Assembly: GCA_964560005.1 (NCBI GenBank)
Contig: CAZLKB010000001.1
Coordinates: forward strand, 13,079-77,078
DNA: 64,000 nt
DNA from: an uncultured Gammaproteobacteria bacterium
GTDB taxonomy: Bacteria > Patescibacteriota > Patescibacteriia > Patescibacteriales > GWC2-42-12
Direction: 5' to 3'
Of this stretch, positions 5,153 through 56,800 are shown in pieces. Position numbers and translations under genes: made by a program. Below the pieces are notes generated by a model, which saw only the letters and a program-made list of their open reading frames with translations, made no database searches and was not told the DNA's origin. Numbering within the stretch: the stretch's first letter is position 1; every line of letters begins with the position of its first letter.

Positions 5153-5194
5153 TACTTCGTTAGTATCATTCACCCCGAAAGCCTGGCTGGATTC

Positions 5195-6622: not shown

Positions 6623-6802
6623 GTTATATTTTATCCTGCGCCCCGCCCGGCGGAACAGCAAAGGACAAGTTGCTTTTTAAAATAATCTTCATCATTAAAA
6701 GTCAAAAAATCAAGCCCTGACGATTTTATTTACGGCCTTGCCTGATAAAATTATACAACTTTAGAGAGTTCTTGTAAAACTTCCTAAATCTCGCGTTATG
6801 AG

Positions 6803-8434
6803 TTATGAGTTATGCGTTACCCGTCCTGCCAGCCCCAGCGCCAGCCATAAAAACAACACCCCGAAATGCAGGCTCCAAAGCCAATGGTCAAAAGACATTA
6901 GAATTACCAGGGAAATAAAAATAGAAATACTTACCATTGAATTTATAGCATAGTCGTTTTCGCTAATTCTAAATTTATAATCTTCCCCCAGCCGGGGACA
7001 TGCAATTTTTAATGAATTGTTTGAAAATTGGTTAATTGAAAATTGTTTGTCCTCCGAAGGCTTGCCGAAGGGGGGAAAATTGAAAATTATTAAACATACT
7101 ATCAGCCCAATAAATAAAATTAATCCTACTATCCCCGTCTCCGCCCAAACCAATAAGAACACATTATGCGCCGGCTGGTAATAATAGCTCGACTCGTCCG
7201 GCTTTAACTCATTATACTGGGCCAAAGTATAATTCCCTAGACCCGCGCCTCCGGCCCAATATTTTTTAATTATCGGCCAGGCATTTTTAATCGACTCAAT
7301 CCTTTCGCTGTTTGATTTAATTTCCAGTCGGTTCGGCGCGTTCGCGAAGCTTAAGGCGCTTGGCATCGCCGCGAAAGATTGAACCGGATATAGCCGCGTC
7401 ATAACTAAATTAGGGTACAGTAAAAATAAAACCAGCGCCACCGCTCCGATAATCAGCATAGCCTGCGCCAGCGCCTTCTCGGCCAATAGGTTTCTTTTGG
7501 CTAAAGACCACAGAACCAGCGCCAGCATGCCCAGCCCGGCTCCCAGCCAGGCGCTTCTGGAAAAGCTAAAAAATAAGGTAGCGGTAAAAATCACTAATAA
7601 TGACCAAGACAATATTTTAAAAATTTTAACATTGAAAATTGTTTGAAAATTATCAGTCGGCTGGTTAATTGAATTTTTTGATTTTTTTGAAAATTGAAAA
7701 TTGAAAATTGAAAATTGATTAAATTTTTCTAGCCTAACAACTTCCCCTACCAAAAGCAGTATGCCTACAGCCATCAGCCCGCCCAATATATTGGGGTGAT
7801 CCAGAGAGCCATAGGCTCTTAGCCATCTTTCGCCCATGCCGTCCGACGCCACCGTCTCAATAACCGACGTTCCCGGCTGGCTCGCCTGGTGCAAAGCCAG
7901 CCCGAGCCATTTGCTTTGAAATGTGGCTTGAAATAAAAACTGCCAGATCGCCAGCAAGGCCTGGGTCGCTATGCCGAAAAGCAAACTCCAAACCAGCTTT
8001 ACTCTATGGTATTGGCTGGCCGCCAACAGCCAGAATAAACCCGCGCCTAAAATCAGCCAGCCGAATTTATAAAACGCCAGCAGTTTGCTCAAAGCAAAAA
8101 AAATGGAAGTAGCCGAAACTAAAATTAAACCTCCAATCAGCAGCCAGGTTAATTGAAATTTTTTAATTGTTTGAAAATTAGATAATTGGAAATTGTTTAA
8201 AAATTGAAAATTAAAAATTAAAAATTTTTTTTGGAAAACCCGATAAATCACAAAAAGAAATAATAATAATATCAATAGTACATCCGTCCCATACAAACTG
8301 TATGTTCCATACTCCCACGGCCCGTTGTTTAAAACTCCCGGCTTAATGATCCAGCGGGTCTGGAGCGGCAGCGTGAAAACTAAGAGGTATAAGCCGTATT
8401 CAATTGTTTTATTTAAATACTTCATATAATACAA
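6803..8434 (-). CDS. O-antigen ligase/polymerase (Wzy_C-like) polytopic membrane protein
   Basis: Many TM helices, plus FSFSRSAWLGAGLGMLAL, which is typical of Wzy_C. Three repeat-encoded in-frame insertions are present (FNFQFLNNFQLSNFQ, FNQFSIFNFQFSKKSK, FSINQFSNNSLK). Confidence 0.7.
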   Translation of the reverse strand: MYYMKYLNKTIEYGLYLLVFTLPLQTRWIIKPGVLNNGPWEYGTYSLYGTDVLLILLLFLFVIYRVFQKKFLIFNFQFLNNFQLSNFQTIKKFQLTWLLIGGLILVSATSIFFALSKLLAFYKFGWLILGAGLFWLLAASQYHRVKLVWSLLFGIATQALLAIWQFLFQATFQSKWLGLALHQASQPGTSVIETVASDGMGERWLRAYGSLDHPNILGGLMAVGILLLVGEVVRLEKFNQFSIFNFQFSKKSKNSINQPTDNFQTIFNVKIFKILSWSLLVIFTATLFFSFSRSAWLGAGLGMLALVLWSLAKRNLLAEKALAQAMLIIGAVALVLFLLYPNLVMTRLYPVQSFAAMPSALSFANAPNRLEIKSNSERIESIKNAWPIIKKYWAGGAGLGNYTLAQYNELKPDESSYYYQPAHNVFLLVWAETGIVGLILFIGLIVCLIIFNFPPFGKPSEDKQFSINQFSNNSLKIACPRLGEDYKFRISENDYAINSMVSISIFISLVILMSFDHWLWSLHFGVLFLWLALGLAGRVTHNS

Positions 8435-8545
8435 ATTTTCAATTTCTAATTTTCAAACAATGCAATAATTCTTCAATTCTTAAATTAATTGAAAATTAAA
8501 TCATTAAAAATTGTTTGAAAATTGAGACTTGAAAATTGAAAATTA
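8434..8545. repeat. heptamer-built inverted repeat ('GAAAATT' subfamily)
   Basis: AAATTTTCAATTTCTAATTTTCAAACAATG opposes ATTGTTTGAAAATTGAGACTTGAAAATTGAAAATT. Confidence 0.85.
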
Positions 8546-8547
8546 TC

Positions 8548-9744
8548 TCACTTTACTAAAAATAAACCGCTAATCTTCTTTATATACTTCTCCCGATACT
8601 CCTCTCTCCTGTCATTGGCATGAAATTTTAAAACCTGATCGCTGATTACCACGCGAGTATCGCGGTTCATCAGCTCGGTTAAAATTTTCGGCAGCAACCT
8701 CAGCTGTAAAGCTTTAAACCAGGGTTCCAGGCCGCCGAAAAACATATCTGCCAACTCGTAATAAAATTTCCCCGGAGCTCTGCCGGCGTCGCGCCGCCTT
8801 GACCAATGTCCGGCCTGTTCGCCCGCCGGCTTGTCCGCCAAATCCGTCAGCTGACGGAGTAAAGCGGACCGATTAGGCAGGCAACCGTTCAGCCAGCTGT
8901 TGACTCCGATAAATTTTTCGTAAACCCCCTCCTGCTGATAAAATGGCGTTAACCCGGCCAGCCAATAAATAAAATATATATCTTCCTTATTAACCCCCTT
9001 TTCGGCCCAAGGCCGATCCTTGCCTACCGGACAAGCAGGCGCCTCGGGTGGAAACGTGGGGTTGGGGAGATTTTCCTCTTTTGCCCCCTTGATAAAGGCT
9101 CGTCTCGCCGTAGCGTAGCCGGGGCGGAGGGATGAAGGGGGATTATTTTTTGTTTGTAGCATCAAGGCGCCTAAATCCAGAGCCTCTTCACTGATAAAAA
9201 AACTCAAACAAATTTTATCTTTAAATTTGCCTAAACCCGGCCTTAAGCCAAGCATCTTAACTAGCGCGACACAGCAGAATCGCGTCAGCCAGATTCTCTT
9301 AGCTTGAGTAATTATAAATAAATCAATATCTCCCTCTTCTTTTAAATTATGGCTGCCCATTAAATTTCCCAGCGCGATCATTTTTATCCAAGGAATCAAT
9401 TTAAAAAGTCTAGCGACTTTAAGGGCGCGTTTAAATTTTCTGTCGGTTACATTATAACGAGCCAGCCGCACCTTAAGGATAGCTTCGCGCCCGGCCAAAA
9501 AATAAAAACCGTTTTTTTGTTCAACGATATTCTTTCCCCCTTGATAAAGCGGGACAAAGGGGGATTTTCCAATGAGAGCATCTAGTTCTTTGACCACTTC
9601 AAAAAAACCGCACTTTAAACCCAGTCCCTGCCAGATCTCAAAAGCAGTCAAGGGAAAGTCAAACATATCAAAATAGGCAACCGTTTTCACGATTGCCTCC
9701 CTAATATTTAAAAATTGTTCGGAATTAATATCTTTAAAGCGCAT
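8548..9744 (-). CDS. nucleotidyltransferase-fold (Pol-beta superfamily) domain protein, hypothetical
   Basis: [21 protein letters not shown] fits the G-S...D-x-D nucleotidyltransferase motif. The track start at 9798 lies in repeat sequence ([18 protein letters not shown]), so I prefer ATG at 9744 (MRFKDIN). The gene contains GC-rich palindromic in-frame insertions. Confidence 0.5.
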
Positions 9745-24428: not shown

Positions 24429-27400
24429 ATGCCTAAAACCAATCTCATTATTATTGATGCCGGGGTGGAACATATCCATTTTGGCATCTACCAAGGCTCG
24501 CAAATAAAAAATCTCTTGATCACAAATAACGATAAAATCGAAACTCTTTTTAAAAACCATGACGTTTTAAAGCTGATTCAGGACCCGGCCGTTGAATTGT
24601 ATCTGACCGGCAAATTGGCGGAAATTATTAGGGCTACGGTCGGGCGCGGGCAGATTATTATGCCCAGCGCCGCGCTTTGGGCCGGAGCTAATTTTTTATT
24701 ATCCGAACTCAATAAAAATTCACTCGGCATAATCGACCTGTCGGCTTCGGGCTATATGGCCATCGCCGTTGACCGCGAGGGCAAGCTCTTAAACGACCTC
24801 TTAATCACCAATCCCCGCTGCGGCGCCGGCAGCGGCATAAATTTAAGCCGGATTTTAGAAAAACTGGCGATCGAAACCCAAGCCGTCGACGAAATCTTAA
24901 AAGATTATTTAGGAGTAGCCGGCCAGGCTAAGAGGCAGGGCGTGGGTATCCGGGCCGACCGTTGCGGCGTTTTCAGTTCCTCGGCCACGATTTCCGACAA
25001 AAACCAGGGCCTGCCCCTGAATTTCGCCCTGGCCGTTACCATGAAATCGGAAGTGCTTAAGGCATGTAAAAAAATGATACCGGACATTGAAACGGTTTAT
25101 CTAACCGGCCGGGTATTTAACTGGCAATACGCCCGTGACTGCGCCGAGGATTACCTTAAAACTATCGGCGTTAAAGAAATAATTTTCGACCAAGGGCAAA
25201 CCCTAATGATTAAGAGCGCTAAACACCTGATTGATGCCGTCGGCCGAGAAAATTTTAAAGAGCAAACCGGGAAAAAATTAAAAAAAGAAGAAAAATTGTT
25301 AGACCTGCCCTCATTTAAAAGCTTAAAAGAAAAATATACCTCCGCCGGCTTGTTTTTAAGGCTCGACGATCCGAAAATCTCCGAAATTAATCACCTGGCT
25401 TTCCAAACCAGACCGGTGAATATCGGCTTAGACGTGGGCTCAACCATGGCTAAAATGCTGATTACGGACGCGGCCACGGGCGAAATCTTATTTTTAAACT
25501 CCTCTGACAACCACGGCGACACCATTGAAACCATTAAGCATATTTTCCGCGGTTTACAGTCGGCCGGCATCACTAAGCTTAACATCCAACACCTGGGCAT
25601 CACCGGCAGCGGGCGTTATCAAGTGCAAAAAGTCTTGCAAAAAGTTTATCCGGGGCTGGCAGACAAAATTTTTGTCTTGGTGGAAAATTACGCTCACGCT
25701 CATGGCTCCATTGAATACGCTAAAGCGCATATCCAAGATTTAACCAAACAAGGCCAGGAAGTTAATCCGGACTTTTGCGTCTTGGTTGATATCGGCGGCG
25801 AAGACACCAAAATTTCCATTATCTCCCTGAAAAAGGAAGAGCTATTTGACAACGCCATGAACATAAAATGTTCGGCCGGAACCGGCAGCTTAATGGACAC
25901 GCTTAAGGCTTTATTCGGCATCAAAGACATAAAAGAGGCTTGCCGGCTGGCCTATGAAGCGGAAAAGGCTTATGAAATTAACGCCACTTGCGCGGTCTTC
26001 TTAATGGAAAACGCACGCGCGATGCAGGGCCAGGGTTATGCCAAGAGTGAAATTCTAGCTTCAGCGAATTACGCCATCGTAGAAAATATGGCCCGAACCC
26101 TTTGGAACCAGGTAAATTTTCCTAAAAACGCGGTCGTGCTCTTGCACGGCCAAACCATGCTCTCCGACCCCCTGCCCCTGGCGGTAACGCGGCGGATTCA
26201 GGAAACCGGAACCATGTATGCGCTGGTGCCGCCTCTGCCGGGCCATCGCGCTTGTTTAGGCTTGATTAAATCAATAAAAAATAAAACCTTCACGGAAAAT
26301 ATTTGCCTGCTGGCTGACTTTATTAATCTTAAATTTGATAAAAAAATAGTTATTTGTCGAGGCGCGGCCTGCGGCGATCAAGCGGCCCGTTGCTCAAGGA
26401 CCTTGCTTAATTCTATCAACCTGGAAGAAAAATTAGTTTTAACGCTGGGTGGCTGCACGGCGGTCAACGAATTAGCATCTAAAAATATTACGGCCGAAAA
26501 AACCCCGGACGCTTACAAAGAAATCTGGCTATTTATCAACCAGGCCCAGCCAAAGTCCCAGGCTAATAACCGCTTGGTTATTCCTCGCAGTTTCGCTATT
26601 TCCGAGCAAGCATTTTTCCTGGCTAAAATCTTTGAAAAACTAGGCATTCCCGTTGAAGTCGATAATGTCCGGGAGACGGATGTTATCGAGGCTCAGCCTC
26701 TATTCAATATTGATGTCTGCGCGCCCTTAATCGGGGCGGCTGGGCAATTTATCAGATTGGCCAAAGCGCCGCACGGCCTTATCCTGGTGCCGCAAATTGA
26801 TTTTTTACCGACTGAAGGCATCAGTCTGGGCAGAACCTGCACTACCAACCAAGGCGGCGTGATTATTGCCGAGCGCATGGCAAAACAAAAATATCCGGCG
26901 GCTAATTTTTATTCCTTTGTCTTAAGCTTAAAAAAAATGGATTCCGAGTATCTGGCCGACCAGTTCTATAGTAAGCTCGACGGATTATTTAAGTATTATA
27001 AATTACCTGTCTCCCGGCCGGAATTTAAACAGGCAATCGAATATGCCGTTAAAGAAAATCGGGATCTGCAAGAGCGCCTGGCCCAGCAGGTTGCCCGATA
27101 TCTGGAAGAGGCGATCCGGCAAAAAAAGAATATCGCCATCGTTTGCGGGCGTGAATATATTTTAAATCCCGGAATATATGACAGCCACGTGGGCAAGCTC
27201 CTAAAGGACAAGGCGGTCATCGCCATTCCCTCCTATGCTCTAAACAGCCGGCTGGATAAGGATTTTGCTTACGTTTACTGGCGCAATCCGCATGATATTC
27301 TAACCAAAATCAATGCCATCACCAATAAAAAATTTCATACTCTGATTATATCGCCTCGGCTTAAGCAATTATTCAAATCTATCGAAACCGGTCTCACCGA

Positions 27401-29171
27401 TTCTTTAATCTCCGCGGTCAGAATTTCTACTTTTAGATGCGGACCAGATACGGTCATCGCTCCGGTTCTTAGTGAAATCACTAAAAAAACACCCAGTCTT
27501 TTCATTCAATCAGACGCCATGATAAAGGAGCTGGCGCATCTGGAAAACCGGGTTAATACTTTTCTTAATCAGTTAAACCAGAAATTGCATGAAGAGTTCT
27601 CCCAAGCGCGTTTCGAGTTAAAACTTATCGACGAGTTCGGGGGAGCGGTCTTGAATAAAGACACGGACGTGATCTATTTTCCCACTCTTAACGATAATCG
27701 GCCGATTACCGCCATCTTCCGAGCGGCGGGATATACTGTAATTGACAATTACGAAAATGAATCTTATGACCTGGAGCATAAAGTGAGATTAGGCAGAAAA
27801 TATGCCGGCGATTCGGTCTGTGCGCCTTTAGCGGCGGTATTCGCCGATATGATGCTGGCTAATGAGGATTTTATAAAGAGAAACAAAGAGCAGGACCCTC
27901 TGCTCAAAGACAAAACCAGGATTATTGTCTTTGACAATAAGGGTACCGGCCCTTGCCGGCAGGGCCAATATTATGAAATGCATAAACTGCTCTTAAGCAA
28001 ACAATTCGGCTGTAACGCCTGCCGGGGTTCTAGCCGGACCTTAGAATATCCAATCAAGCTGCTGGTCGGCCACGAGAAAGATGGTTTTAATGTGGGCTTG
28101 GATGAATGGGCGCTGATTCAATCCTTCCAGGGGATTGTTTTACAGGGAGTTTTACATGCCATTCTCTTGCGTGCCGGCGCCGCCTGCCAGGACTATGATC
28201 ATTACCAAAAATTTTATGAAGATTATATTAAACTAAAAAACGACATCAACAAAATCTTAGAAACCAAAAGCCGGCCCAATAAAACCATACTGGCTATGGC
28301 GCCGGCCATCGGCAAAAAATCTCTAATAGGCGGAGCCATTTTTAAATACTTCGGTTACGGATTGTACAGGAATAACGGCTTAAGAAAAATTCTAAAAAAA
28401 TTCTCCAGAAAATGGATAAAAAACTCCAATCGCGCAGACTATCCAGGTATTGTCATTCCGACCCCGCATTTTGCGGGGGAGGAATCACTTGAACATGGAA
28501 ATGGCGCAAAAGGAATTATTAAACAATCTGAGGAAAGATCAGATAAAATTAAAATTCACATTGAAGGCGAAGCCTATATGCGAGTAGCGCAAGTGGAGGA
28601 AATATTCAAGTCTCTCGTTGACGCCATCGGTTTCAGGTCTTTTACGGCGACATACTCTCCTCTTTGGTGCTATCTGGAGCTATTATTGGAATTCGCCATT
28701 TTAGAATGCCGAGGAGAAATCAGTTTAAGCAAGAGCCAAAAAGAAATTAAGGAAAAGCAAAAACTAATCTCAAAAATTAAAAAATTAATAATAGTTCTAA
28801 GAAAAGTTTTAGCCCAGCCCCTATATAGAGCGGCCAAAATTACCATGCCCGAAGAAATGAGGCTGGTTTTAGAATCGGCCAGGCAAATTTTACCCTCGCT
28901 TAAGCCGCACGGTGAACTGCCGCCCTACCTGGGCGAAGCGATTTTACAAATAAAACACGGTACGGATTTATTCCTTAACGTCGCGCCCGAGGGCTGCATG
29001 GTTTCATCCATGGGCGCGCTCTTCTCCTATCCCATACTTAAGTCCGGCGGACGACCGGCCAGAATTCAAGATCTGTTTACCTTAAACGGCGAAGTTGATG
29101 ACGAGCAGTTAAAAATGTCCTTATTAAAAACCCTTGGACCGGAGAGGTATTATCGTAAAGCTTATAAATAA
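24429..29171 (+). CDS. fusion of two HgdC/BcrAD-BadFG-type activase ATPase modules with DUF2229/HGD-D (2-hydroxyacyl-CoA dehydratase-like) domains; PlsA/PlsR-like
   Basis: Module 1 has NPRCGAGSGINLSRILEKL and ADRCGVFSSSATIS. Module 2 has IGLDVGSTMAKMLITD, KCSAGTGSLMDTLKALFG and NATCAVFLMENA. The C-terminal half has IPRSFAISEQAFFLAKIFEKLGIPVE, DVCAPLIGAAGQ, FRCGPDTV, GDSVCAPLAAVFADMM and GTGPCRQGQYYEMHKLL. Confidence 0.85.
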   Translation: MPKTNLIIIDAGVEHIHFGIYQGSQIKNLLITNNDKIETLFKNHDVLKLIQDPAVELYLTGKLAEIIRATVGRGQIIMPSAALWAGANFLLSELNKNSLGIIDLSASGYMAIAVDREGKLLNDLLITNPRCGAGSGINLSRILEKLAIETQAVDEILKDYLGVAGQAKRQGVGIRADRCGVFSSSATISDKNQGLPLNFALAVTMKSEVLKACKKMIPDIETVYLTGRVFNWQYARDCAEDYLKTIGVKEIIFDQGQTLMIKSAKHLIDAVGRENFKEQTGKKLKKEEKLLDLPSFKSLKEKYTSAGLFLRLDDPKISEINHLAFQTRPVNIGLDVGSTMAKMLITDAATGEILFLNSSDNHGDTIETIKHIFRGLQSAGITKLNIQHLGITGSGRYQVQKVLQKVYPGLADKIFVLVENYAHAHGSIEYAKAHIQDLTKQGQEVNPDFCVLVDIGGEDTKISIISLKKEELFDNAMNIKCSAGTGSLMDTLKALFGIKDIKEACRLAYEAEKAYEINATCAVFLMENARAMQGQGYAKSEILASANYAIVENMARTLWNQVNFPKNAVVLLHGQTMLSDPLPLAVTRRIQETGTMYALVPPLPGHRACLGLIKSIKNKTFTENICLLADFINLKFDKKIVICRGAACGDQAARCSRTLLNSINLEEKLVLTLGGCTAVNELASKNITAEKTPDAYKEIWLFINQAQPKSQANNRLVIPRSFAISEQAFFLAKIFEKLGIPVEVDNVRETDVIEAQPLFNIDVCAPLIGAAGQFIRLAKAPHGLILVPQIDFLPTEGISLGRTCTTNQGGVIIAERMAKQKYPAANFYSFVLSLKKMDSEYLADQFYSKLDGLFKYYKLPVSRPEFKQAIEYAVKENRDLQERLAQQVARYLEEAIRQKKNIAIVCGREYILNPGIYDSHVGKLLKDKAVIAIPSYALNSRLDKDFAYVYWRNPHDILTKINAITNKKFHTLIISPRLKQLFKSIETGLTDSLISAVRISTFRCGPDTVIAPVLSEITKKTPSLFIQSDAMIKELAHLENRVNTFLNQLNQKLHEEFSQARFELKLIDEFGGAVLNKDTDVIYFPTLNDNRPITAIFRAAGYTVIDNYENESYDLEHKVRLGRKYAGDSVCAPLAAVFADMMLANEDFIKRNKEQDPLLKDKTRIIVFDNKGTGPCRQGQYYEMHKLLLSKQFGCNACRGSSRTLEYPIKLLVGHEKDGFNVGLDEWALIQSFQGIVLQGVLHAILLRAGAACQDYDHYQKFYEDYIKLKNDINKILETKSRPNKTILAMAPAIGKKSLIGGAIFKYFGYGLYRNNGLRKILKKFSRKWIKNSNRADYPGIVIPTPHFAGEESLEHGNGAKGIIKQSEERSDKIKIHIEGEAYMRVAQVEEIFKSLVDAIGFRSFTATYSPLWCYLELLLEFAILECRGEISLSKSQKEIKEKQKLISKIKKLIIVLRKVLAQPLYRAAKITMPEEMRLVLESARQILPSLKPHGELPPYLGEAILQIKHGTDLFLNVAPEGCMVSSMGALFSYPILKSGGRPARIQDLFTLNGEVDDEQLKMSLLKTLGPERYYRKAYK

Positions 29172-29477: not shown

Positions 29478-32400
29478 TTACAAATTTTTTAATTGCTCTC
29501 TAAACTTCTCTAATTCTGCCTGCCACCCCGCTAATTTCTCTTTTTCTTTTTTCACGATCTCGGCCGGCGCATTACTAACGAATTCCTTATTAGCCAGCCT
29601 AGCTTCCGCGGCCTTAATTACTTTTTCCAGATTAACAATTTCCTTTTCCAGTCTGGCCTTCTCTTTGGCTTTATCCACGGCTCCAACCAAATATATTTCT
29701 ATATCGCCAACGGCCGCGTAAATCGCGCCGGCAATTTTCTCTCCTTTAGTTTTAATTTCTAACTCACTAATGCCGGTGCGTAAACTTTTTATTAAGTGCG
29801 CCTGCTCGGTTATTAATTTTTTCCGCTTACCCGCATAAATCACCGCTTTAACTTTCTGCCCTGGCTCAACTTTATTTTCCGCGCGCGCGTTGCGGATAGC
29901 GACAATAATCTCTTTCACCACCTCAAACTCTATTTTGTCATTCTGGAGCGAAGCGATAGAATCTGATTTCGGCCATTTCTCCACCATTAAAAAAGTTTTA
30001 TGCCCCATCTTTTGCCAAATTGTTTCCGTCACGAATGGCATAAACGGATGCCAGAGCTTTAATAAATTTTCTAAAACATAATTTAATATCCGGCTCTTTT
30101 CTTCATTTTTTTCAAACTTGCTGGCCTCTAAATACCAATCGGCTAAATCATCCCAGGTGAATTCGCGCAAACTCTCCCCGGCCTGCGAAAAACTATAACT
30201 TTCCAAATCTTCGGTTACTTTCTTTATTAACTCTTCCATTTTTCCCAATATCCACCTGTCCGATATTGTTAGATTCTTTAAGTTTAATTCATTATTCATG
30301 ATTCGTGATTCATGATTCGTGATTATATAACGCGCCACGTTCCACAGCTTATTGGTAAAATTCCTGAAACTGGCGATTTTATCTTCGCTATATTTGGCGT
30401 CGTTGCCCGGCGTATTGCCCATTAACAGCGATAAGCGAACCGCGTCGGTGCCGAATTTATCAATCATCTCCAGCGGGTCAATGCCGTTGCCTTTTGATTT
30501 GCTCATTTTCTTGCCGTTCTTATCCAGTATCATGCCGTGCAGATATACTTTTTCGAACGGAATTTCGTTTAAGGCGTAAAAAGACATGATAATCATGCGC
30601 GACACCCAGAGGGTAATTATTTCATAGCCGGTTTCTAAGACCTGCGTGGGATGAAACCTGGCTAAATCACCCGATTTTTTGCCTTTAACATAATTATCCG
30701 GCCAGCCCAAAGTGGAGAAGGTCCAGGTGCCGGAAGAAAACCAGGTGTCTAAAGTATCTTCATCTTGAACCCAAAAATCTTTTTTCAATTCATTTAATAT
30801 ATCTTGGCATTCATCGCTATTAAAATGCGAGGCGGAATTTTCAACTTTAATTATTTTCGCGTCTAGCGCAACGGCTATTTCAGCAACCTCTTCCGCAGTG
30901 ACTGCGTGATCCTCTCCGGCTTGAAAGATTACTATTTCTCCGACATTTTCTTTTATTTTCTTAAAATCGTATTTATAATTTTTATACTCTATTAACTCCT
31001 TCTTTTTTGTTCTTAGGGAAGGAGCCAGCATGACCAGCTTTTTTATTTTTAAATTACTGCTCTGTATTATTTTTAACGCTAAGGCACTGCCTAATGAATG
31101 CGTCACTATAATGGAATTTTTATCTATTTTAGCACTAGCCAAGACAAACTTTTCCTGCTCATCGCGATTAGGTTTATCCGGATTGGGCAAGATCTGCCAA
31201 AAATTTTCTTGATTCGGCAATTGCTTGTTTAACCAATTTAACGGGTCCTTTACATCTCTGGTACGATAAAAACCGTGCAAAAAAACAAAATTAGAATTCT
31301 GCGGCGCTTCCGCGCCGACATAAATTTCTTGGTCCTTATCTTCTAACTTCTTACTTCTACCTTCTGCCTTCTTATACCAAACCGGTATCCTATGCCCGAA
31401 CCAAAGCTGGCGCGAAACACACCAATCGTGCAGATTATTCATCCAGTCCAGATACCTTTTTTTGAATCTCTCCGGGATAAATTCGATCTTTCCGTCAGCG
31501 GCCGCCGCGATGGCTTTTTCCTTTAGCGACTTTCCACCCAAACGTTTCAATTTCTTGTCCACGTCCACGAACCATTGCTTTGACGGTATAGGTTCGATTT
31601 GCGTGCCGCAGCGGTAGCATAACGCGATATTATGCAGATAGCCGTCTTCAATATGGTCAAGCAAACCCATTTTTTCCATGTCGGCCAAAATCGCCTCCCG
31701 CGCTTCTTTAGTGGTCAAACCGGCGTATTTACCCGTATTGGCCATCATCCGGCCTTGTTCATTTATGACTTGCTTCATGGCCAGATTATGCCTTTGGGCA
31801 ATTTGATAATCCGTAAAGTCATGGGCCGGCGTAACTTTAATCGCGCCTGAGCCGAATTTAGGATCAACCGCCCGGTCGGCCACCACGATAATTTCAAATT
31901 CACCCAGCACGCCCGGTATTTTATATTTCTTGCCCACCATTTTCTCGTAGCGCTTATCTCCCGGGTAAACTGCCACGGCCGTATCGCCCAATTTTGTTTC
32001 CGGACGAGAAGTGGCCAAAACGAATGGACCGTATTTCAGCCAATACAATTTGCCTTTTTCTTCTTTATATTCCACCTCGTCATCGGCTAAAGTGGACTGG
32101 CACCTGGGGCACCAATTTACCACCCTGACTCCGCGATAAATCACGCCTTCGTCATACATATCCACAAACAGCTTTTTCACTGCCTTGGCCCGCGGCTCAT
32201 CCAAGGTAAAGGCCTGGCGCGACCAATCCAAAGACGCGCCCATCTTTCTGGTCTGGCGCAAAATCGTAGCCTGGGTCTCCCGCAAAAATTGCCAAACCCT
32301 TTTTAAAAATTCTTCTCGACCTAAATCGTGGCGCGTTTTTTTCTCTTCCTGCCACAATTTTTTTTCCACCACGTACTGCGTAGCGATGGGCGCGTGGTCC

Positions 32401-32657
32401 GTGCCCGGAATCCAAAGAGCACGTTCGCCCTTCATCCGATGATAACGAATCAGTAAGTCTTCTATGGCCAGCATGGCCGAATGCCCCAGATGCAATTTAT
32501 CCGTAATGTTGGGTGGAGGCAGAACTATGGTGTACGGTTTGGCCGTTTTAGGCAAGCCTAAGTTATCCGGATTAAAAAATCCCGACTTTTCCCACTTTTC
32601 ATAAACGCCGTCTTCGTATTCGGCCGGATTATATATTTTCGGCAATTCTACAGACAT
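29478..32657 (-). CDS. valS: valyl-tRNA synthetase with a nested alpha/beta serine-hydrolase domain
   Basis: PNITDKLHLGHS (HIGH), the CP1 editing domain, WCVSRQLWFGHRIPVWY, QDEDTLDTWFSS, KMSKSKGN and a C-terminal coiled coil. A 202-aa segment separates VWY from QDEDT, where only a short peptide is expected. Confidence 0.95.
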   Translation of the reverse strand: MSVELPKIYNPAEYEDGVYEKWEKSGFFNPDNLGLPKTAKPYTIVLPPPNITDKLHLGHSAMLAIEDLLIRYHRMKGERALWIPGTDHAPIATQYVVEKKLWQEEKKTRHDLGREEFLKRVWQFLRETQATILRQTRKMGASLDWSRQAFTLDEPRAKAVKKLFVDMYDEGVIYRGVRVVNWCPRCQSTLADDEVEYKEEKGKLYWLKYGPFVLATSRPETKLGDTAVAVYPGDKRYEKMVGKKYKIPGVLGEFEIIVVADRAVDPKFGSGAIKVTPAHDFTDYQIAQRHNLAMKQVINEQGRMMANTGKYAGLTTKEAREAILADMEKMGLLDHIEDGYLHNIALCYRCGTQIEPIPSKQWFVDVDKKLKRLGGKSLKEKAIAAAADGKIEFIPERFKKRYLDWMNNLHDWCVSRQLWFGHRIPVWYKKAEGRSKKLEDKDQEIYVGAEAPQNSNFVFLHGFYRTRDVKDPLNWLNKQLPNQENFWQILPNPDKPNRDEQEKFVLASAKIDKNSIIVTHSLGSALALKIIQSSNLKIKKLVMLAPSLRTKKKELIEYKNYKYDFKKIKENVGEIVIFQAGEDHAVTAEEVAEIAVALDAKIIKVENSASHFNSDECQDILNELKKDFWVQDEDTLDTWFSSGTWTFSTLGWPDNYVKGKKSGDLARFHPTQVLETGYEIITLWVSRMIIMSFYALNEIPFEKVYLHGMILDKNGKKMSKSKGNGIDPLEMIDKFGTDAVRLSLLMGNTPGNDAKYSEDKIASFRNFTNKLWNVARYIITNHESRIMNNELNLKNLTISDRWILGKMEELIKKVTEDLESYSFSQAGESLREFTWDDLADWYLEASKFEKNEEKSRILNYVLENLLKLWHPFMPFVTETIWQKMGHKTFLMVEKWPKSDSIASLQNDKIEFEVVKEIIVAIRNARAENKVEPGQKVKAVIYAGKRKKLITEQAHLIKSLRTGISELEIKTKGEKIAGAIYAAVGDIEIYLVGAVDKAKEKARLEKEIVNLEKVIKAAEARLANKEFVSNAPAEIVKKEKEKLAGWQAELEKFREQLKNL
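30774..31298 (-). other. inserted YdeN/RBBP9-like serine-hydrolase domain inside valS
   Basis: FVFLHGF, LPNPDKPNRDE, IIVTHSLGS (Ser codon 31095-31097), FQAGEDHAV (Asp 30909-30911) and SASHFN (His 30825-30827). Confidence 0.7.
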
Positions 32658-32898: not shown

Positions 32899-33783
32899 TT
32901 AGATAAGGCTGAGCAACTTTAGGGTTTCCCAGAGTTTCTTCCTGTTTTTTTCCAACATGGGTGCGAGCGGCAGACGGTATTCCTCATTGATCATACCCAT
33001 CATGGCCAGCGCGGCTTTGACCGGACCAGGATTGGTTTCAATAAACAAATCCCTAAAAAGCGGATAGTAGATGGCATGCACTATCCGCGCCGAGGCGTAA
33101 TCATCATTCAACGCGAACTTAACCATTTCCGCCATATCACGAGGGATGATATTGGCGGCGACGCTAATGACGCCTTGCGCGCCAACGGACATAAACGGCA
33201 GTGTCAGCGAATCGTCGCCGCAGAGGATGGAAAAGTCCTCTCCCAAAACCGCGCGCAGGTCGCTGACGCGATTGGGATTGCCGCCAGCTTCCTTGATACC
33301 AACGATGTTCGGGCAGGCCTCGGCCAGCCGTTTAACCGTGTTCACGCCGATTTCCACGCCGCAACGACCCGGGATGCTGTAGAGGATGATGGGCAGTGAG
33401 GTCGCTTGAGCAATGGCGCGGAAGTGCAGGAACAATCCCTCCTGGGTCGGTTTATTATAGTAAGGCGCCACCTGAAGAGAGGCATCGGCGCCGAGCTTTT
33501 CCGCCGCTTGCGTCAATTCAATGGCTTCCGCGGTTGAGTTGCCGCCCGTGCCGGCGATAACCTTGAATTTACCGCCAGCGAATCTTACCGCCAAATCTAT
33601 AATGTACTTATGTTCCCCCATGTCCACTGTGGGCGACTCGCCGGTGGTGCCGACCGGCACGATGCCGTCCACGCCGGCCCTAATCTGCCACCTAATCAGA
33701 CTTTCCAACGCGCATTCGTCAATTTTTCCGTTTCTAAACGGCGTGGGAATGGCGGTATATGTTCCGCTGAACTTAGTATTCAT
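32899..33783 (-). CDS. dapA: 4-hydroxy-tetrahydrodipicolinate synthase family (DapA/NanA-type class I aldolase)
   Basis: TAIPTPF, VPVGTTGESPT, YNKPTQEGLFLHF and VGIKEAGG (Schiff-base Lys region). GC-richer than its neighbours, with its own terminator. Confidence 0.85.
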   Translation of the reverse strand: MNTKFSGTYTAIPTPFRNGKIDECALESLIRWQIRAGVDGIVPVGTTGESPTVDMGEHKYIIDLAVRFAGGKFKVIAGTGGNSTAEAIELTQAAEKLGADASLQVAPYYNKPTQEGLFLHFRAIAQATSLPIILYSIPGRCGVEIGVNTVKRLAEACPNIVGIKEAGGNPNRVSDLRAVLGEDFSILCGDDSLTLPFMSVGAQGVISVAANIIPRDMAEMVKFALNDDYASARIVHAIYYPLFRDLFIETNPGPVKAALAMMGMINEEYRLPLAPMLEKNRKKLWETLKLLSLI

Positions 33784-35370: not shown

Positions 35371-35444
35371 AGGGCATGTAGCTCAGCTGGTTAGAGCGTG
35401 GCTCTTATAAAGCCAAGGTAGATGGTTCGAGTCCATCCATGCCC
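35371..35444 (+). tRNA. tRNA-Ile, anticodon UAU
   Basis: Hand-folded cloverleaf. Acceptor GGGCATG/CATGCCC, D arm GCTC-AGCTGGTTA-GAGC and anticodon stem TGGCT/AGCCA. The anticodon loop is C-T-TAT-A-A, the T arm is GATGG-TTCGAGT-CCATC and the discriminator is A. No CCA is encoded. Confidence 0.85.
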
Positions 35445-35464
35445 ACTTAGGTAATATAAATTTA

Positions 35465-35541
35465 GGACAATTAGCTCAGTTGGTTAGAGCGCCACATTGA
35501 CATTGTGGAGGTCACTGGTTCGAGCCCAGTATTGTCCACCA
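35465..35541 (+). tRNA. tRNA-Val, anticodon GAC
   Basis: Acceptor GGACAAT/ATTGTCC, anticodon stem CCACA/TGTGG with loop T-T-GAC-A-T, T arm ACTGG-TTCGAGC-CCAGT, and an encoded CCA. Confidence 0.9.
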
Positions 35542-53874: not shown

Positions 53875-56800
53875 CTAACTTATTATTCTCTTGATTATTT
53901 CCTCGGCTTCGCTTCTAGCCTGTTCCTCAGTTTTTCCTCCTACTATTCGGTAATACCCGACATATGATTCAATTGCCTCAACATTCGTCATCTCCTTGTC
54001 GGCCCTCTTATCTTCTTTACCAAAAAATTTTTCTAAGGCCTTTCTCTGTCTAAAGCTGGAATTCGGTAACGCAAACTCGTTTAACCAAGCGGCGCTAGAA
54101 AAGGTAATTTTTTCTTGCTGCGATTCTACAGACTCCACGCCCGGGGTGGGCTTCGAAGACATATCGGATGAAATATCTTTTTGTAATGATTCAATCGCTC
54201 TATCTACTATAATTTTAGCTTGAACCATTACTGCGTCTCCGGTTATTTCACCGCCGTCCTTTAAAACCCCCGCAATTGAGTCTATCGCTTGATCTTTAGT
54301 TAATGAAATGCCATTCTTATCTTTAAAATATTTTTTTATCGCCTGCGTCATCTTACGATTATTCTTGGTAATAACCTCGCTTAATTCAGCCACCAACTTG
54401 GCGGCGACTAATCCTTCTATAATTTCGGAATCTTTTGTTGATTCAACTTTCTCCTCTTTATTGGTACTAACGGTTTGAACTTCAGGTCCTTTTCCAGGGT
54501 CTGCGGGTGATTCTTGGGTTGAGATTTGGTCGAGCTTATTTTCAGGGCCTGGTGTAGTAACTGTATCGTCTAATCCTTGTATTAGTTGTTGACTTGTCGG
54601 TCTTATTACTGATCCTCCCTTCCTAGTTGATCCTTGTCTTCTCGCATTTTTAATAACTTTGTCTCCAGTATCATCCACTGGCTTAGGTCCGCTTCCTTTA
54701 ATACTTCCACCACCAGCCCTACCACTTCTTTCGCCCGCCGTTGATATTTTATCCGCCGGTACTACGGGCAAATTTTGATTTAAAACCTCTTCTAAATCCT
54801 TCGCTGGTGCTTGGGTATCAGCCGATGCAGCTGCCTCCTGCCGCGATAAGCCATTTTCGCTAACGGAGACTTTTCCGGTTTGCTTGTATTGCCGCCAAGC
54901 TTCATCAATATTCTTCGCCAGCTTATTAAATTTATTATCAGTTGCCTCTACCGCTTGATCATATCCTAGTCTCTTAGATTCCATTAAATATCCCACATAA
55001 GCCGTCTTAGCCTTATCCAGATTAAGCACCGCGGTTTTAAAATACCCCTTGCCTTCTAATTTAAACTGCTGTTTAGCGATCTTCAGCGCCGACCCCCAAA
55101 GTCCGTTAGGGAAAATAACCTCAAGCCAGCGGCCGGCCTGCAGTTTAATTTCTTCCCGCTCCGCTCTTTGTTCAGTGGCTGGTTCCGGCTCAGTTTCAGA
55201 TGATTCAACCGCTGGCGCGTTTTCGGCCTGATTTTTAGGCGCGCGCCTTCCGCCTTCGGGCTTGAATCTAAAAAATCTTTTTATTGCTCCAAACCACGCT
55301 CCTCTGGTATTTTTTCTTGTTTCCGGGCTAGCTTGCCCCTGATCTAAGGCGACTCTTTTTTGGTCTAATTTTGCAACTTCCTTGTCATAATCATCGTCCG
55401 AATACGCTGCCGCCTCTTCATCTTTTCCGGCATTTACCCTAACTTCCTGGGCTTTGTTAATAGCTTCGCCTATAATTCTTTTATTATTAAAATCAATTGT
55501 CTCTATTATATTATTCACTTCAACCTGGCTTTTAAATCCTCCGCTAACCTTTTTTTGATAAGAGTCTTTAATTTGAATAAAATTTTGGTTCATTTCCCCT
55601 GCACAGGCTTCAACTGACTCCATGTTCCCGGTGCTTGCCTCGGATTGAATTTTATCTCTTAATAGATCATTTTGATGCAATAACCCATTTAGCATATGGG
55701 TATTCTCAAAATCTTCAGCTTTAAATGTGGCCGCTTCATTACTTGTTTCCGCCTTAACTCCTTGACTGACACGAAGGCGGGCAATATCTTCATTATTAAG
55801 TTTTATTCTTGCTTTATTTTTATTCATTCCGGCCGGTCTCGCTTGTTCGGCCTCAACCCCTATTTTTCGCGCTGTTCCGGTTATTTTCCCGGACTTAATC
55901 GGCACTTCAAATCCTGCCTGTTCTTTACCTGTCTTATTTTGACTGGCTCCTCGCTCACCGCTTGGTACTAAATTTTCATCTAACTCTTTTTCAGATTGTC
56001 TTTCATATTGTTCTGGGTGTTCCAGACTATCATATTCAAATTGTTCGCTGCTAGCGCCTTGAACCGATGTTTGAGCCGCTTTTGTTTGAACGGCGCCAGG
56101 AGCGGCTCCCATAAAAGTACCCGCTGGAACTTGATCTTTGCCCGCTTCCCCGGTCTTGGCTTTTCCCGCTTTTAATTCATCCGAAGTCTTGCCGATTTTA
56201 TCAATTCTAGCTCGGGCTCGTTCAACTTCATTCTTTCGCCTGTTTAATTCTTTTATTCTAGCGTCTAATCTAACTCTTTCATTAGTTAAACCTTGTAAAT
56301 CAGCTCTTTTAGAAGCCTCCTCTGCTTTCCATTCAACCGCCTCTTCGCCTAAAACCTTAATAACTTCGCTTGCGCCTCCAACTAACCTTATTTTCTGCTG
56401 CAACGCTTTGATTTCCTCTTTATAGGTTGCTTCTTGAGCTGTTACTACGGTTAAAACTTCAGCCGAGCTTTTTAAGGCTATCTCAATGCCTTCCTGATTT
56501 TTCTTTAATGGTCCGGTAAAAGTTTCTAGTTTAATTTTTAAAGCGGTTTCTTTTTCATCAATTAATCTTTGTTTAAGCATCATTTCTTTTTCCAGTTTAT
56601 CTATTTCTGGTTTTTTCAAGTTTTCTCTTAAGGCGTCCGTTTGATTCCTCAGCTTTTCCAAACTATCTTTCTCCTGAATTAAATCTATGCCGTCCATAGT
56701 CGCTAAATTTTTTAACTTCTCTTCCAATATTTCACCGGCCTTTTCTATAGCCTCCGATTCACTTCTGTCGCCGTAATATTTTTTTTCAACGCGCCCACCT

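What the first reader, a model, noticed from the sequence alone, without database searches (positions are those of the whole stretch)
30774..31298. Valyl-tRNA synthetase carries a nested alpha/beta serine-hydrolase domain with an intact Ser-Asp-His triad
ValRS normally has only a short connective peptide between the conserved GHRIPVWY and QDEDTLDTWFSS motifs. As I remember them, it is a few tens of residues in E. coli and T. thermophilus, and often a zinc knuckle. Here I count 202 aa.

The segment begins with a repeat-encoded KKAEGRSKKLEDKD and the usual EIYVG strand. The next ~175 aa read as a complete small hydrolase of the YdeN/RBBP9 'Ser_hydrolase' type. The supporting motifs are:
- FVFLHGF, the oxyanion H-G.
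- LPNPDKPNRDE, typical of the family.
- IIVTHSLGS, the nucleophile elbow, with the Ser codon at 31095-31097.
- FQAGEDHAV, with Asp at 30909-30911.
- SASHFN, with His at 30825-30827.

HIGH, the CP1 editing domain and KMSKS are all intact, so the synthetase itself looks functional. I know of no aminoacyl-tRNA synthetase with an embedded serine hydrolase. An esterase placed next to the tRNA 3' end suggests aminoacyl-ester hydrolysis, that is extra editing or deacylation. It could also be an unrelated moonlighting activity.
Basis: partly seen in the sequence, partly recalled or inferred. Interest (0 to 1): 0.85.

Follow-up and report, generated by a model that had tools for sequence, protein, structure and literature searches.

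The report
Serine esterase domain spliced into ValRS
A valyl-tRNA synthetase from an ultra-small (CPR/Patescibacteria) bacterium really does carry a complete, apparently active RBBP9/YdeN-type serine hydrolase inside one of its surface loops. It belongs to a widespread hydrolase group, not found in the papers I could search, that travels with leucyl- and valyl-tRNA synthetases and may be an extra hydrolytic quality-control station.

Summary
ORF 29478-32657 (-) is a full valS equivalog of 1059 aa. It has 202 aa between GHRIPVWY and QDEDTLDTWFSS, against a median of 21 aa in related ValRS and 30 aa in T. thermophilus.

Residues 454-630 score above the Pfam threshold for PF06821. They fold (pLDDT 88) like RBBP9 and YdeN (TM 0.8). 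H-G, H-S-x-G, Asp and His are invariant in 12 ValRS from independent assemblies.

The domain sits in the CP3 hairpin. It arrived as a cassette: its GC3 is 0.35 against 0.49-0.56 in the flanks. It is 76-77% identical to the domains of ValRS whose N-terminal backbones are about 50% identical, while the closest orthologue at the syntenic locus lacks it.

The case is not unique. The same subfamily is nested in 88 of 120 related CPR LeuRS. Free-standing copies lie next to leuS in 6 of 8 informative contexts, once alongside a YbaK-like deacylase. A few copies sit in UvrA, UvrB, SecA, EngA, TsaD and AlaRS.

My best reading (about 0.4) is a hydrolase of alpha-aminoacyl esters that assists aaRS quality control. 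The main rival (about 0.3) is a passenger esterase in a permissive loop. I found no paper describing this. I file it as a new variant of a known kind, interest about 0.7.

The parts
29478..32657 (-). valS gene, 1059 aa plus stop: a complete valine--tRNA ligase with a nested hydrolase
   Evidence: ORF. NCBIfam valS equivalog NF004349 scores 1013.9 bits against a cut-off of 704. Pfam finds tRNA-synt_1, Anticodon_1, Val_tRNA-synt_C and Ser_hydrolase. Full-length AF2 model has pLDDT 85.8 and pTM 0.77.
31374..32657 (-). ValRS aa 1-428: first half of the Rossmann fold (HLGH at 32481-32492), CP1 editing domain (about 31686-32054; TSRPET 31995-32012, TPAHDFTD 31809-31832), CP2, and the WCVSRQLWFGHRIPVWY strand (31374-31424)
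   Evidence: Aligns to T. thermophilus ValRS 1GAX residues 2-417. It is 85-91% identical, by 100-aa window, to the insert-less orthologue P0003.
31332..31373 (-). Low-complexity linker KKAEGRSKKLEDKD (aa 429-442), encoded by a heptanucleotide tandem array
   Evidence: TRF reports period 7 with 5.6 copies at 31335-31374. pLDDT is below 50 at aa 433-439.
31314..31328 (-). EIYVG, second strand of the CP3 beta-hairpin (aa 444-448). The hydrolase is grafted just after it.
   Evidence: Strands E426-430 and E443-447 in the full-length model. The strand is conserved in all ValRS, with or without the insert.
30768..31298 (-). Nested YdeN/RBBP9-type alpha/beta serine hydrolase domain (aa 454-630)
   Evidence: PF06821 scores 41.3 bits against GA 22. 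Foldseek top hits are RBBP9 and YdeN at TM about 0.8. Profile against PDB sequences gives E = 6e-11 to RBBP9 and YdeN. GC3 is 0.352 against 0.558 and 0.492 in the flanks.
31272..31277 (-). H461-G462, oxyanion-hole HG of FVFLHGF
   Evidence: Invariant in 12 of 12 ValRS-nested domains.
31095..31097 (-). Ser521 (TCA), nucleophile in the T-H-S-L-G-S elbow
   Evidence: H-S-x-G is invariant in alignment A1. It aligns with RBBP9 Ser75 in GHSSG (PMC8866121).
30909..30911 (-). Asp583, triad acid (AGEDHAV)
   Evidence: Invariant column D130 of A1.
30825..30827 (-). His611, triad base (SASHFN)
   Evidence: Invariant column H158 of A1.
29481..30767 (-). ValRS aa 631-1059: second half of the Rossmann fold starting at QDEDTLDTWFSS (30732-30767), KMSKS (30495-30509), anticodon-binding domain, C-terminal coiled-coil tRNA arm (29481-29669)
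   Evidence: Aligns to 1GAX residues 448-859. Pfam finds Anticodon_1 and Val_tRNA-synt_C.

Best explanation
**Shown.** The window encodes the organism's orthologous valine--tRNA ligase. The genome is a Patescibacteria/CPR genome close to Candidatus Falkowbacteria. A complete lid-less alpha/beta serine hydrolase of the YdeN/RBBP9 family (PF06821), about 176 aa, has been spliced into the CP3 hairpin. CP3 is the small variable subdomain between the WCxSRQxWxGHxIP strand and the second half of the Rossmann fold. The splice point lies after the EIYVG strand and before W-x-QDxDTLDTWFSS. The catalytic Ser521, Asp583, His611 and the H-G oxyanion motif are conserved in every homologous insert. HIGH, KMSKS and the CP1 editing motifs of the host are intact. 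The cassette was acquired by domain-level lateral exchange between divergent valS alleles. It belongs to a hydrolase subfamily that in CPR bacteria and DPANN archaea is genetically tied to class Ia synthetases. That subfamily is nested at the hinges of the LeuRS editing domain, nested in ValRS CP3, or encoded as a separate gene directly upstream of leuS.

**Inferred.** The domain is a working esterase that forms an acyl-enzyme on Ser521 with an alpha-aminoacyl group carrying a free alpha-amine. This is the chemistry shown for its closest solved relative, RBBP9. Tethered beside the site where the tRNA CCA end enters, it would act as an additional hydrolytic station of the synthetase. It would clear aminoacyl esters that CP1 does not handle, most likely mis-acylated or otherwise unwanted aminoacyl-tRNA, in cis or in trans. 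Less likely substrates are a small aminoacyl (thio)ester by-product of editing, such as homocysteine thiolactone, or peptide N-termini.
For: **Identity and fold.**

**Conservation of catalytic residues.** They are invariant across 12 inserts that are 51-78% identical to the window's. In LeuRS-nested copies, 89 of 90 keep the x-S-x-G elbow.

**Position.** Window aa 4-429 align to 1GAX 2-417 and aa 631-1057 to 448-859. In the paralogue IleRS, the CP2-3 linker (DWNVSRNRYWG) lines the tRNA/A76 pocket, and CP3 follows it and is structurally variable (PMC7955072 and PMC7191050).

**Link to class Ia synthetases.**
- Among the best 150 of 1299 profile hits, plus the 12 ValRS, the hosts are 50 LeuRS, 19 ValRS and 67 free-standing proteins.
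- 88 of the 120 nearest relatives of one CPR LeuRS carry the domain. Median length is 1002 aa with it and 819 aa without.
- Free-standing relatives lie directly upstream of leuS, on the same strand, with gaps of 0-36 nt, for P0125, P0130, P0139 and P0145. P0143 lies 1.4 kb from leuS.
- P0155 sits in an operon: hydrolase, hydrolase, YbaK-like tRNA_edit deacylase, Ham1, archaeal-type LeuRS. That makes 6 of 8 informative contexts.

**Chemistry precedent.** RBBP9 is an aminopeptidase that needs a free alpha-amine, anchored by Glu108 (PMC8866121). It also activates the L-valyl ester valacyclovir (Shenoy 2020, cited in PMC7730578). In the profile alignment a nearly invariant Glu of the ValRS inserts falls one residue from Glu108.

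**Cassette transfer.**
Against: - No biochemistry exists for any member of this subfamily.
- The same hydrolase family is occasionally nested in proteins with no aminoacyl chemistry: UvrB (2), UvrA, SecA, EngA/Der and TsaD. The EngA copy even falls inside the ValRS-type clade.
- The same ValRS loop, and the LeuRS hinges, also host unrelated domains: His_Phos_1, ASCH-like, NUDIX, methyltransferase and HAD. These sites may simply be permissive.
- The closest orthologues, P0003 (88% identical in the N-terminal part, 80% in the C-terminal part) and P0007, lack the hydrolase, so ValRS works without it.
- CP1 editing motifs are as intact in carriers as in non-carriers, so no editing deficit is being compensated.
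- I could not obtain model coordinates. Whether the Ser521 pocket faces the path of the tRNA 3' end is unknown.
- More distant free-standing YdeN-like proteins are not aaRS-linked.
Confidence: 0.42

Rival explanations
1. Passenger domain. The hydrolase is an independent housekeeping esterase, or a near-neutral 'domain hitch-hiker'. CPR and DPANN genomes repeatedly lodge such domains in permissive surface loops of large, essential, constitutively expressed proteins. It is catalytically active, but its substrate has nothing to do with tRNA or ValRS. Being nested only provides expression and inheritance.
For: - Hosts include UvrA, UvrB, SecA, EngA, TsaD and AlaRS.
- CP3 of ValRS and the CP1 hinges of LeuRS also accept His_Phos_1, ASCH-like, NUDIX, methyltransferase and HAD domains, sometimes several at once. 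P0012 is 1750 aa, P0023 is 1585 aa, and L004 has 3 tandem hydrolases.
- Distribution is patchy, with cassette-like lateral exchange and a foreign GC3.
- The nearest orthologues lack it.
- CP3 is known to vary in topology among IleRS (PMC7191050).
Against: - The host distribution is heavily skewed to LeuRS and ValRS: 69 of 76 nested copies whose host I could identify.
- The un-fused gene is still glued to leuS, with a 0-36 nt gap, in several lineages including archaeal-type LeuRS. Once it sits in an operon with a YbaK-like deacylase. A mere loop-permissiveness model does not predict this.
- No terminal repeats or target duplications flank the insert.
Confidence: 0.3
2. Substrate supply. The domain is an RBBP9-like aminopeptidase or amino-acid esterase. 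It releases Val (or Leu in LeuRS) from peptides or esters scavenged from the host. This would feed the adjacent synthetase in organisms that cannot make amino acids.
For: - The only demonstrated activities of the closest solved relative are N-terminal aminoacyl removal from peptides and valacyclovir hydrolysis.
- The main hosts, LeuRS and ValRS, plus one AlaRS, all use hydrophobic amino acids.
- From general knowledge, CPR bacteria are auxotrophic symbionts.
Against: - A soluble aminopeptidase gains nothing obvious from being nested.
- Operon partners are quality-control or house-cleaning enzymes (YbaK-like, Ham1), not transporters or peptidases.
- The RBBP9 specificity-pocket residues (Tyr99, Phe140, Leu141) are not conserved in the insert (alignment).
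Confidence: 0.12
3. By-product detoxification. The domain hydrolyses a reactive small molecule made by the synthetase's own proofreading. Candidates are homocysteine thiolactone and released non-cognate aminoacyl-adenylate.
For: - The human valacyclovir hydrolase BPHL, another alpha/beta serine hydrolase, is a highly efficient homocysteine thiolactonase (PMC4198189).
- Hcy-thiolactone is produced by aaRS editing (PMC11312131 abstract). That LeuRS and ValRS are among the producers is from my own knowledge.
- House-cleaning partners (Ham1, NUDIX) occur in the same operons or proteins.
Against: - BPHL belongs to a different alpha/beta-hydrolase family.
- MetRS and IleRS, the main Hcy editors, were not seen among the hosts.
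- The idea rests on analogy only.
Confidence: 0.08
4. The domain is catalytically dead and serves only as a structural or tRNA-binding add-on. Alternatively, the whole thing is an assembly or annotation artefact.
For: None positive.
Against: - The triad and oxyanion residues are invariant in 12 of 12 inserts.
- The reading frame is continuous.
- The identical protein is on a 299-kb contig, and the same junctions occur in at least 11 independent assemblies.
Confidence: 0.03

Closest known systems
RBBP9 / YdeN serine hydrolases (Pfam PF06821; PDB 2QS9, 7OEX, 1UXO)
   Same: - Same fold and size: about 180 aa, lid-less alpha/beta hydrolase, TM about 0.8.
- Same order of H-G oxyanion motif, H-S-x-G nucleophile, Asp and His.
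- Same PNPxxP loop.
- RBBP9 acts on alpha-aminoacyl groups with a free amine.
   Different: - Only 20-22% identical.
- Here it is nested inside another enzyme rather than free-standing.
- The specificity-pocket residues of RBBP9 are not conserved.
- An invariant K-I-K-K-L strand and a D-P-x-x-W-L motif are specific to the ValRS-nested clade.
Editing (proofreading) domains of aminoacyl-tRNA synthetases and their free-standing relatives (CP1 of Leu/Ile/ValRS, INS/YbaK, AlaX, DTD)
   Same: - A hydrolytic module inserted into, or encoded beside, a synthetase.
- The family occurs both fused and free-standing, like INS/YbaK or AlaRS/AlaX.
- One operon combines it with a YbaK-like protein.
   Different: - Unrelated fold. 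It would be the first editing module built on a Ser-His-Asp triad.
- It coexists with an intact CP1.
- No deacylase activity has been shown.
CP3 subdomain / zinc knuckle of class Ia synthetases (T. thermophilus ValRS 418-447; IleRS CP3)
   Same: Same insertion point in the Rossmann fold. CP3 is known to vary between species.
   Different: Known CP3 versions are 20-70 aa structural elements. Here the hairpin carries a whole enzyme.
Inteins and in-frame selfish inserts (e.g. Rickettsia palindromic elements; from general knowledge)
   Same: - Sits in-frame in conserved essential genes.
- Patchy among close relatives.
- Moves laterally between alleles.
- Occasionally found in other housekeeping genes.
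   Different: - No Hint or splicing motifs, and it is not excised.
- No terminal repeats.
- It encodes a conserved catalytic triad, and its host range is strongly biased to LeuRS and ValRS.

Membership tests
PF06821 Ser_hydrolase (YdeN/RBBP9) | Sequence matches the family HMM above the curated gathering score | tested here: met
   41.3 bits against GA 22 for the 175-aa segment, and 36.2 bits within the full protein. The profile against PDB sequences hits RBBP9 and YdeN at E = 6e-11.
PF06821 Ser_hydrolase (YdeN/RBBP9) | Small lid-less alpha/beta-hydrolase fold | tested here: met
   AF2 pLDDT 87.9. Foldseek ranks 1-7 are RBBP9 and YdeN, with TM 0.79-0.83 over about 180 columns.
PF06821 Ser_hydrolase (YdeN/RBBP9) | Ser-Asp-His triad in canonical order, with nucleophile elbow and HG oxyanion motif | tested here: met
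   S521, D583, H611 and H461-G462 are present. They are invariant in 12 of 12 homologous inserts.
PF06821 Ser_hydrolase (YdeN/RBBP9) | Serine-dependent hydrolase activity | not testable with these tools
   Needs fluorophosphonate labelling and esterase or aminopeptidase assays, comparing wild type with S521A.
Valine--tRNA ligase (valS) | Equivalog-level HMM score, HIGH and KMSKS, CP1 editing motifs, C-terminal coiled-coil arm | tested here: met
   - NF004349 scores 1013.9 bits against 704.
- HLGH at aa 56-59 and KMSKS at aa 717-721.
- TSRPET and TPAHDFTD are present.
- PF10458 is found.
- The locus is syntenic with valS of a Falkowbacteria genome.
Known aminoacyl-tRNA editing/deacylase domains (CP1, YbaK/INS, AlaX, DTD, Pth) | Homology of the insert to one of these folds | tested here: not met
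   Pfam gives only alpha/beta-hydrolase families for the insert, and NCBIfam gives no hit.
Known aminoacyl-tRNA editing/deacylase domains (CP1, YbaK/INS, AlaX, DTD, Pth) | Conserved genomic or fusion linkage to a synthetase | tested here: met
   - Nested in LeuRS (88 of 120 relatives) and in ValRS.
- The free gene lies next to leuS in 6 of 8 informative contexts.
- One operon includes YbaK-like PF04073.
Known aminoacyl-tRNA editing/deacylase domains (CP1, YbaK/INS, AlaX, DTD, Pth) | Hydrolysis of (mis)acylated tRNA | not testable with these tools
   Requires deacylation assays.
Intein | Hint domain, with a nucleophile at the N-terminal junction and H-N plus Cys/Ser/Thr at the C-terminal junction | tested here: not met
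   There is no Hint-family hit. The junctions read ...WY|KKAEG and ...KKDFWV|QDED.
Transposon-like or palindromic in-frame selfish element | Terminal inverted or direct repeats, or a target-site duplication at the insert borders | tested here: not met
   The repeat finder on 30650-31450 gives only short chance matches, none at the borders.

The most novel reading that the evidence does not exclude
Class Ia synthetases of CPR bacteria and DPANN archaea (LeuRS widely, ValRS in some lineages) have recruited a Ser-His-Asp alpha/beta hydrolase as a third catalytic site. This would be a new class of aminoacyl-tRNA proofreading or deacylase module, unrelated to CP1, YbaK, AlaX or DTD. It exists both fused and as a leuS-operon gene, and it is exchanged between synthetase alleles as a cassette.
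Probability: 0.3. Interest if true: 0.9.

Novelty: new variant of a known kind. Interest (0 to 1): 0.7.

Why it matters
Synthetase fidelity is thought to rest on a small, closed set of editing folds. A serine-hydrolase module that is repeatedly fused to LeuRS and ValRS, or encoded next to them, would add a new one. It is widespread in the large CPR and DPANN radiations, and it has a triad that is easy to mutate and to label with fluorophosphonate probes.

It would also give the first physiological clue to the function of the YdeN/RBBP9 family, whose bacterial members have no known role.

Even if the domain proves to be a passenger, the data show something else of interest. The CP3 loop of ValRS and the CP1 hinges of LeuRS act as 'docking sites' where whole enzymes (esterase, histidine phosphatase, NUDIX, ASCH) are swapped between alleles of essential genes. 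That is an unusual mode of protein evolution in reduced genomes.

Tried and rejected
1. **Word-index search with the insert alone** found nothing. This is a tool limitation, because the identical protein P0001 is in that database. I replaced it with the exhaustive profile search.
2. **Assembly chimera** is rejected. The frame is continuous, the contig is 299 kb, and the same junctions occur in many assemblies.
3. **Intein** is rejected. There is no Hint domain and no splice-junction residues.
4. **Transposon or palindromic element** is rejected. No terminal repeats or target duplication flank the insert.
5. **Compensation for a decayed CP1 editing site** is rejected. The editing motifs are as frequent in carriers as in non-carriers, for both ValRS and LeuRS.
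6. **Vertical inheritance with loss only** is rejected for this locus. Hydrolase identity to P0015 and P0023 (76-77%) far exceeds identity of their N-terminal backbones (48-51%). The flanks match P0003 and P0007 at 85-94%, and GC3 drops to 0.35.
7. **A second hydrolase copy or a LeuRS in the window** was not found.
8. **The AFDB Foldseek library** was unavailable.
9. **Model coordinates** are not exposed. I could not measure the distance or orientation of Ser521 relative to the synthetic and editing sites.
10. **Literature searches** for nested or fused hydrolases in CPR synthetases returned nothing relevant. The library covers open-access papers only.
11. **The GTDB genome scan** used narrow peptide patterns and returned only 8 loci. 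It is not a census.
Full report
**1. The observation**

The minus-strand ORF 29478-32657 encodes a 1059-aa protein.
- GHRIPVWY is aa 421-428 and QDEDTLDTWFSS is aa 631-642, leaving 202 residues between them.
- Ser521 is at 31095-31097, Asp583 at 30909-30911 and His611 at 30825-30827.
- HLGH is aa 56-59 and KMSKS is aa 717-721.

The protein is a genuine valine--tRNA ligase. The NCBIfam valS equivalog scores 1013.9 bits against a cut-off of 704. Pfam finds tRNA-synt_1, Anticodon_1 and Val_tRNA-synt_C.

Against T. thermophilus ValRS (1GAX), residues 4-429 align to 2-417 and residues 631-1057 align to 448-859. The extra material therefore replaces the 30-residue zinc knuckle at 418-447. In 99 related Patescibacteria ValRS the same gap has a median of 21 aa.

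The linker KKAEGRSKKLEDKD is encoded by a 7-nt tandem array at 31335-31374. It is the only part of the full-length model with pLDDT below 50.

**2. What the insert is**

- The 175-aa segment scores 41.3 bits on Pfam PF06821 Ser_hydrolase, against a gathering score of 22.
- Modelled with an alignment of 12 homologues, it gives pLDDT 87.9 and pTM 0.88, with the beta-alpha-beta order of a minimal alpha/beta hydrolase.
- Its best PDB matches are human RBBP9 (2QS9; 7OEX, with bound Phe; 9FCR; TM 0.79-0.83) and B. subtilis YdeN (1UXO; TM 0.80).
- In the 12 ValRS that carry it, the H-G oxyanion pair, the H-S-x-G elbow, the Asp and the His are invariant. Identity to the window's domain is only 51-78%.

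This is the signature of an enzyme under purifying selection.

The full-length model (pLDDT 85.8, pTM 0.77) shows a hairpin formed by strands 426-430 and 443-447 (EIYVG). The hydrolase hangs from the end of the second strand and returns at FWV-QDED.

By homology with IleRS, this hairpin is the CP3 subdomain. It follows the CP2-3 linker (DWNVSRNRYWG, which corresponds to DWCVSRQLWFG here). That linker helps form the tRNA/A76 pocket. CP3 is known to differ in topology between species (PMC7955072 and PMC7191050).

**3. Origin**

The organism is a Patescibacteria/CPR bacterium near Candidatus Falkowbacteria. The locus is syntenic with a Falkowbacteria genome. That genome has DHH, then valS, then a giant BcrAD/DUF2229 gene, and its valS is 905 aa with no hydrolase.

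The flanks next to the insert are 85-94% identical to the insert-less P0003 and to P0007, which carries a histidine phosphatase in the same loop. The hydrolase itself is closest to those of P0015 and P0023: 86% in its first half and 69% in its second. The flanks of those two proteins are only 58-67% identical to the window's, and their N-terminal backbones 48-51%.

GC3 is 0.352 in the hydrolase, against 0.558 and 0.492 in the two ValRS halves. No terminal repeats flank the insert.

The simplest reading is cassette exchange between divergent valS alleles. Recombination would occur in the highly conserved sequences that encode the motifs on either side.

**4. The wider picture**

I ran a profile of the 12 inserts against 1.84 billion representative proteins. 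It found 1299 relatives, 227 of them below E = 1e-10. I classified the best 150, plus the 12 query ValRS, by Pfam and BLAST:

| Host | Count |
|---|---|
| LeuRS | 50 |
| ValRS | 19 |
| Free-standing, about 180 aa | 67 |
| UvrB | 2 |
| UvrA, SecA, EngA/Der, TsaD, AlaRS | 1 each |
| Short fragments | 8 |
| Unclassified | 11 |

In LeuRS the domain sits mostly at the N-terminal hinge of the CP1 editing domain (about aa 245). Less often it sits at the C-terminal hinge (about aa 450) or further on.

Of the 120 nearest relatives of one such LeuRS, many of them named Doudnabacteria or Patescibacteria, 88 carry the domain and 89 of 90 copies keep the nucleophile elbow. JGI auto-annotated one of them as 'leucyl-tRNA synthetase/predicted alpha/beta hydrolase family esterase'.

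Copies can be multiple. One ValRS has three in tandem (L004) and one LeuRS has two (L006). DPANN archaeal LeuRS also have the domain (L005, L008).

A rough NJ tree puts the window-type ValRS domains in one clade, which also contains the EngA copy. LeuRS-nested and free-standing copies are interleaved.

**5. Gene context of the free-standing copies**

- P0125, P0130, P0139 and P0145 (the last on 11 contigs) lie immediately upstream of leuS, on the same strand, with gaps of 0-36 nt.
- P0143 lies 1.4 kb from leuS.
- P0155 heads an operon: hydrolase, hydrolase, YbaK-like tRNA_edit protein (PF04073), Ham1, archaeal-type LeuRS (TIGR00395, 750 bits).

Two more distant homologues, P0159 and P0153, are not aaRS-linked. 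Two contexts, P0133 and P0236, were uninformative. That gives 6 of 8 informative contexts next to a class Ia synthetase. A pure loop-permissiveness model does not predict this.

**6. Mechanism**

*Shown:* an intact RBBP9/YdeN-type catalytic apparatus, placement on CP3, intact synthetic and CP1 motifs, and fusion or operon linkage of the subfamily to LeuRS and ValRS.

*Known from the literature:* RBBP9 forms an acyl-enzyme with N-terminal aminoacyl groups. It requires a free alpha-amine, which Glu108 anchors (PMC8866121). It also hydrolyses the L-valyl ester valacyclovir (Shenoy 2020, cited in PMC7730578). In the profile alignment a nearly invariant Glu of the inserts lies one position from Glu108. 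This is suggestive only.

*Inferred:* the domain hydrolyses alpha-aminoacyl esters generated at or near the synthetase. The most likely substrate is aminoacyl-tRNA species not handled by CP1, which would make the domain an auxiliary proofreading or deacylase site. I put this at about 0.4.

Sub-alternatives are an aminopeptidase or esterase that supplies Val or Leu, and detoxification of editing by-products such as Hcy-thiolactone. The second rests on analogy with BPHL (PMC4198189).

**7. The main rival**

The domain may be a passenger. Four points favour this:
- Its occasional hosts (UvrA, UvrB, SecA, EngA, TsaD) have nothing to do with aminoacyl chemistry.
- The same loops accept His_Phos_1, ASCH-like, NUDIX, methyltransferase and HAD domains.
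- The nearest orthologues do without it.
- CP1 motifs are equally intact with and without it.

I could not obtain coordinates to see where the Ser521 pocket points. I give this rival about 0.3.

**8. Comparison with what is known, and novelty**

The insert is a member of PF06821. The sequence threshold, the fold and the triad were all tested and met. It is not homologous to any known editing fold, not an intein and not a repeat-bounded element.

Synthetases with inserted or appended hydrolytic modules are a known kind (CP1, INS/YbaK, AlaX). An alpha/beta serine hydrolase in that role, nested in CP3 of ValRS or at the CP1 hinges of LeuRS, was not found in six literature searches on the topic. 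Those searches cover only the open-access library. The sequences themselves are public and partly auto-annotated.

I therefore rate it a new variant of a known kind, with interest about 0.7. The ValRS case in this window is a rarer, laterally acquired offshoot of a widespread LeuRS-centred phenomenon in CPR and DPANN.

Noticed in passing
window 31335-31374 and 30287-30324 (both inside valS): Heptanucleotide tandem arrays lie inside the coding sequence. The units on the + strand are CTTACTT (5.6 copies) and ATTCATG (5.4 copies). They encode the low-complexity peptides KKAEGRSKKLEDKD and HESRIMNNELN. Orthologues carry 7-aa-periodic peptides at the same two loops (NYELRITNYELRIT, MQNAECRMQNAEC, QIPNSKFQIPEN). 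This suggests 7-nt microsatellites read in all three frames are a recurrent feature of these CPR genes.
   Followed up: partly
ValRS orthologues P0007, P0013, P0014, P0018, P0096, P0029, P0051, P0012, P0023; locus L004: The same CP3 loop hosts other whole domains in related ValRS. His_Phos_1 (PF00300) is inserted before the EIYVG strand. ASCH-like modules also occur, read by eye from the sequences and not confirmed by an HMM. Some proteins stack several domains: P0012 is 1750 aa, P0023 is 1585 aa, and L004 has three tandem hydrolases. CPR LeuRS likewise carry nested NUDIX, methyltransferase and HAD domains.
   Followed up: partly
window 32899-33783 (-): A DHDPS/dapA-like gene has GC 0.54 and GC3 0.66, against a window mean GC of 0.435. 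It is absent from the otherwise syntenic DHH-valS-BcrAD locus of a Falkowbacteria genome (L018). It is probably a recent horizontal acquisition.
   Followed up: partly
window 35372-35446 and 35465-35541 (+): tRNA-Ile with anticodon UAU lies directly next to tRNA-Val(GAC), 2.7 kb from valS. A UAU tRNA-Ile is uncommon in bacteria, which usually decode AUA with a lysidine-modified CAU tRNA (the rarity is from general knowledge).
   Followed up: no
window 24429-29171 (+): A 1580-aa protein combines BcrAD_BadFG ATPase and DUF2229 (CoA-enzyme-activase-like) regions. It is conserved next to valS in the Falkowbacteria relative, where it is 1662 aa.
   Followed up: no
window 53875-57342 (-): A 1155-aa ORF has no Pfam match and an atypically low GC3 of 0.365. 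It accounts for most of the low-GC3 windows in the background distribution.
   Followed up: no
locus L015 (GCA_020049755.1) 4001-8549: A tightly packed operon encodes two Ser_hydrolase paralogues, a YbaK-like tRNA_edit protein, Ham1 (ITPase) and an archaeal-type LeuRS. It could be a quality-control gene cluster worth studying on its own.
   Followed up: partly
locus L003 4004-4540; proteins P0122, P0128, P0154, P0178, P0193, P0225, P0270: The same hydrolase family is nested in several other proteins: EngA/Der (between the two GTPase domains), SecA, TsaD, AlaRS, UvrB and UvrA. In the NJ tree the EngA copy groups inside the ValRS-type clade, which implies transfer between different host genes.
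   Followed up: partly
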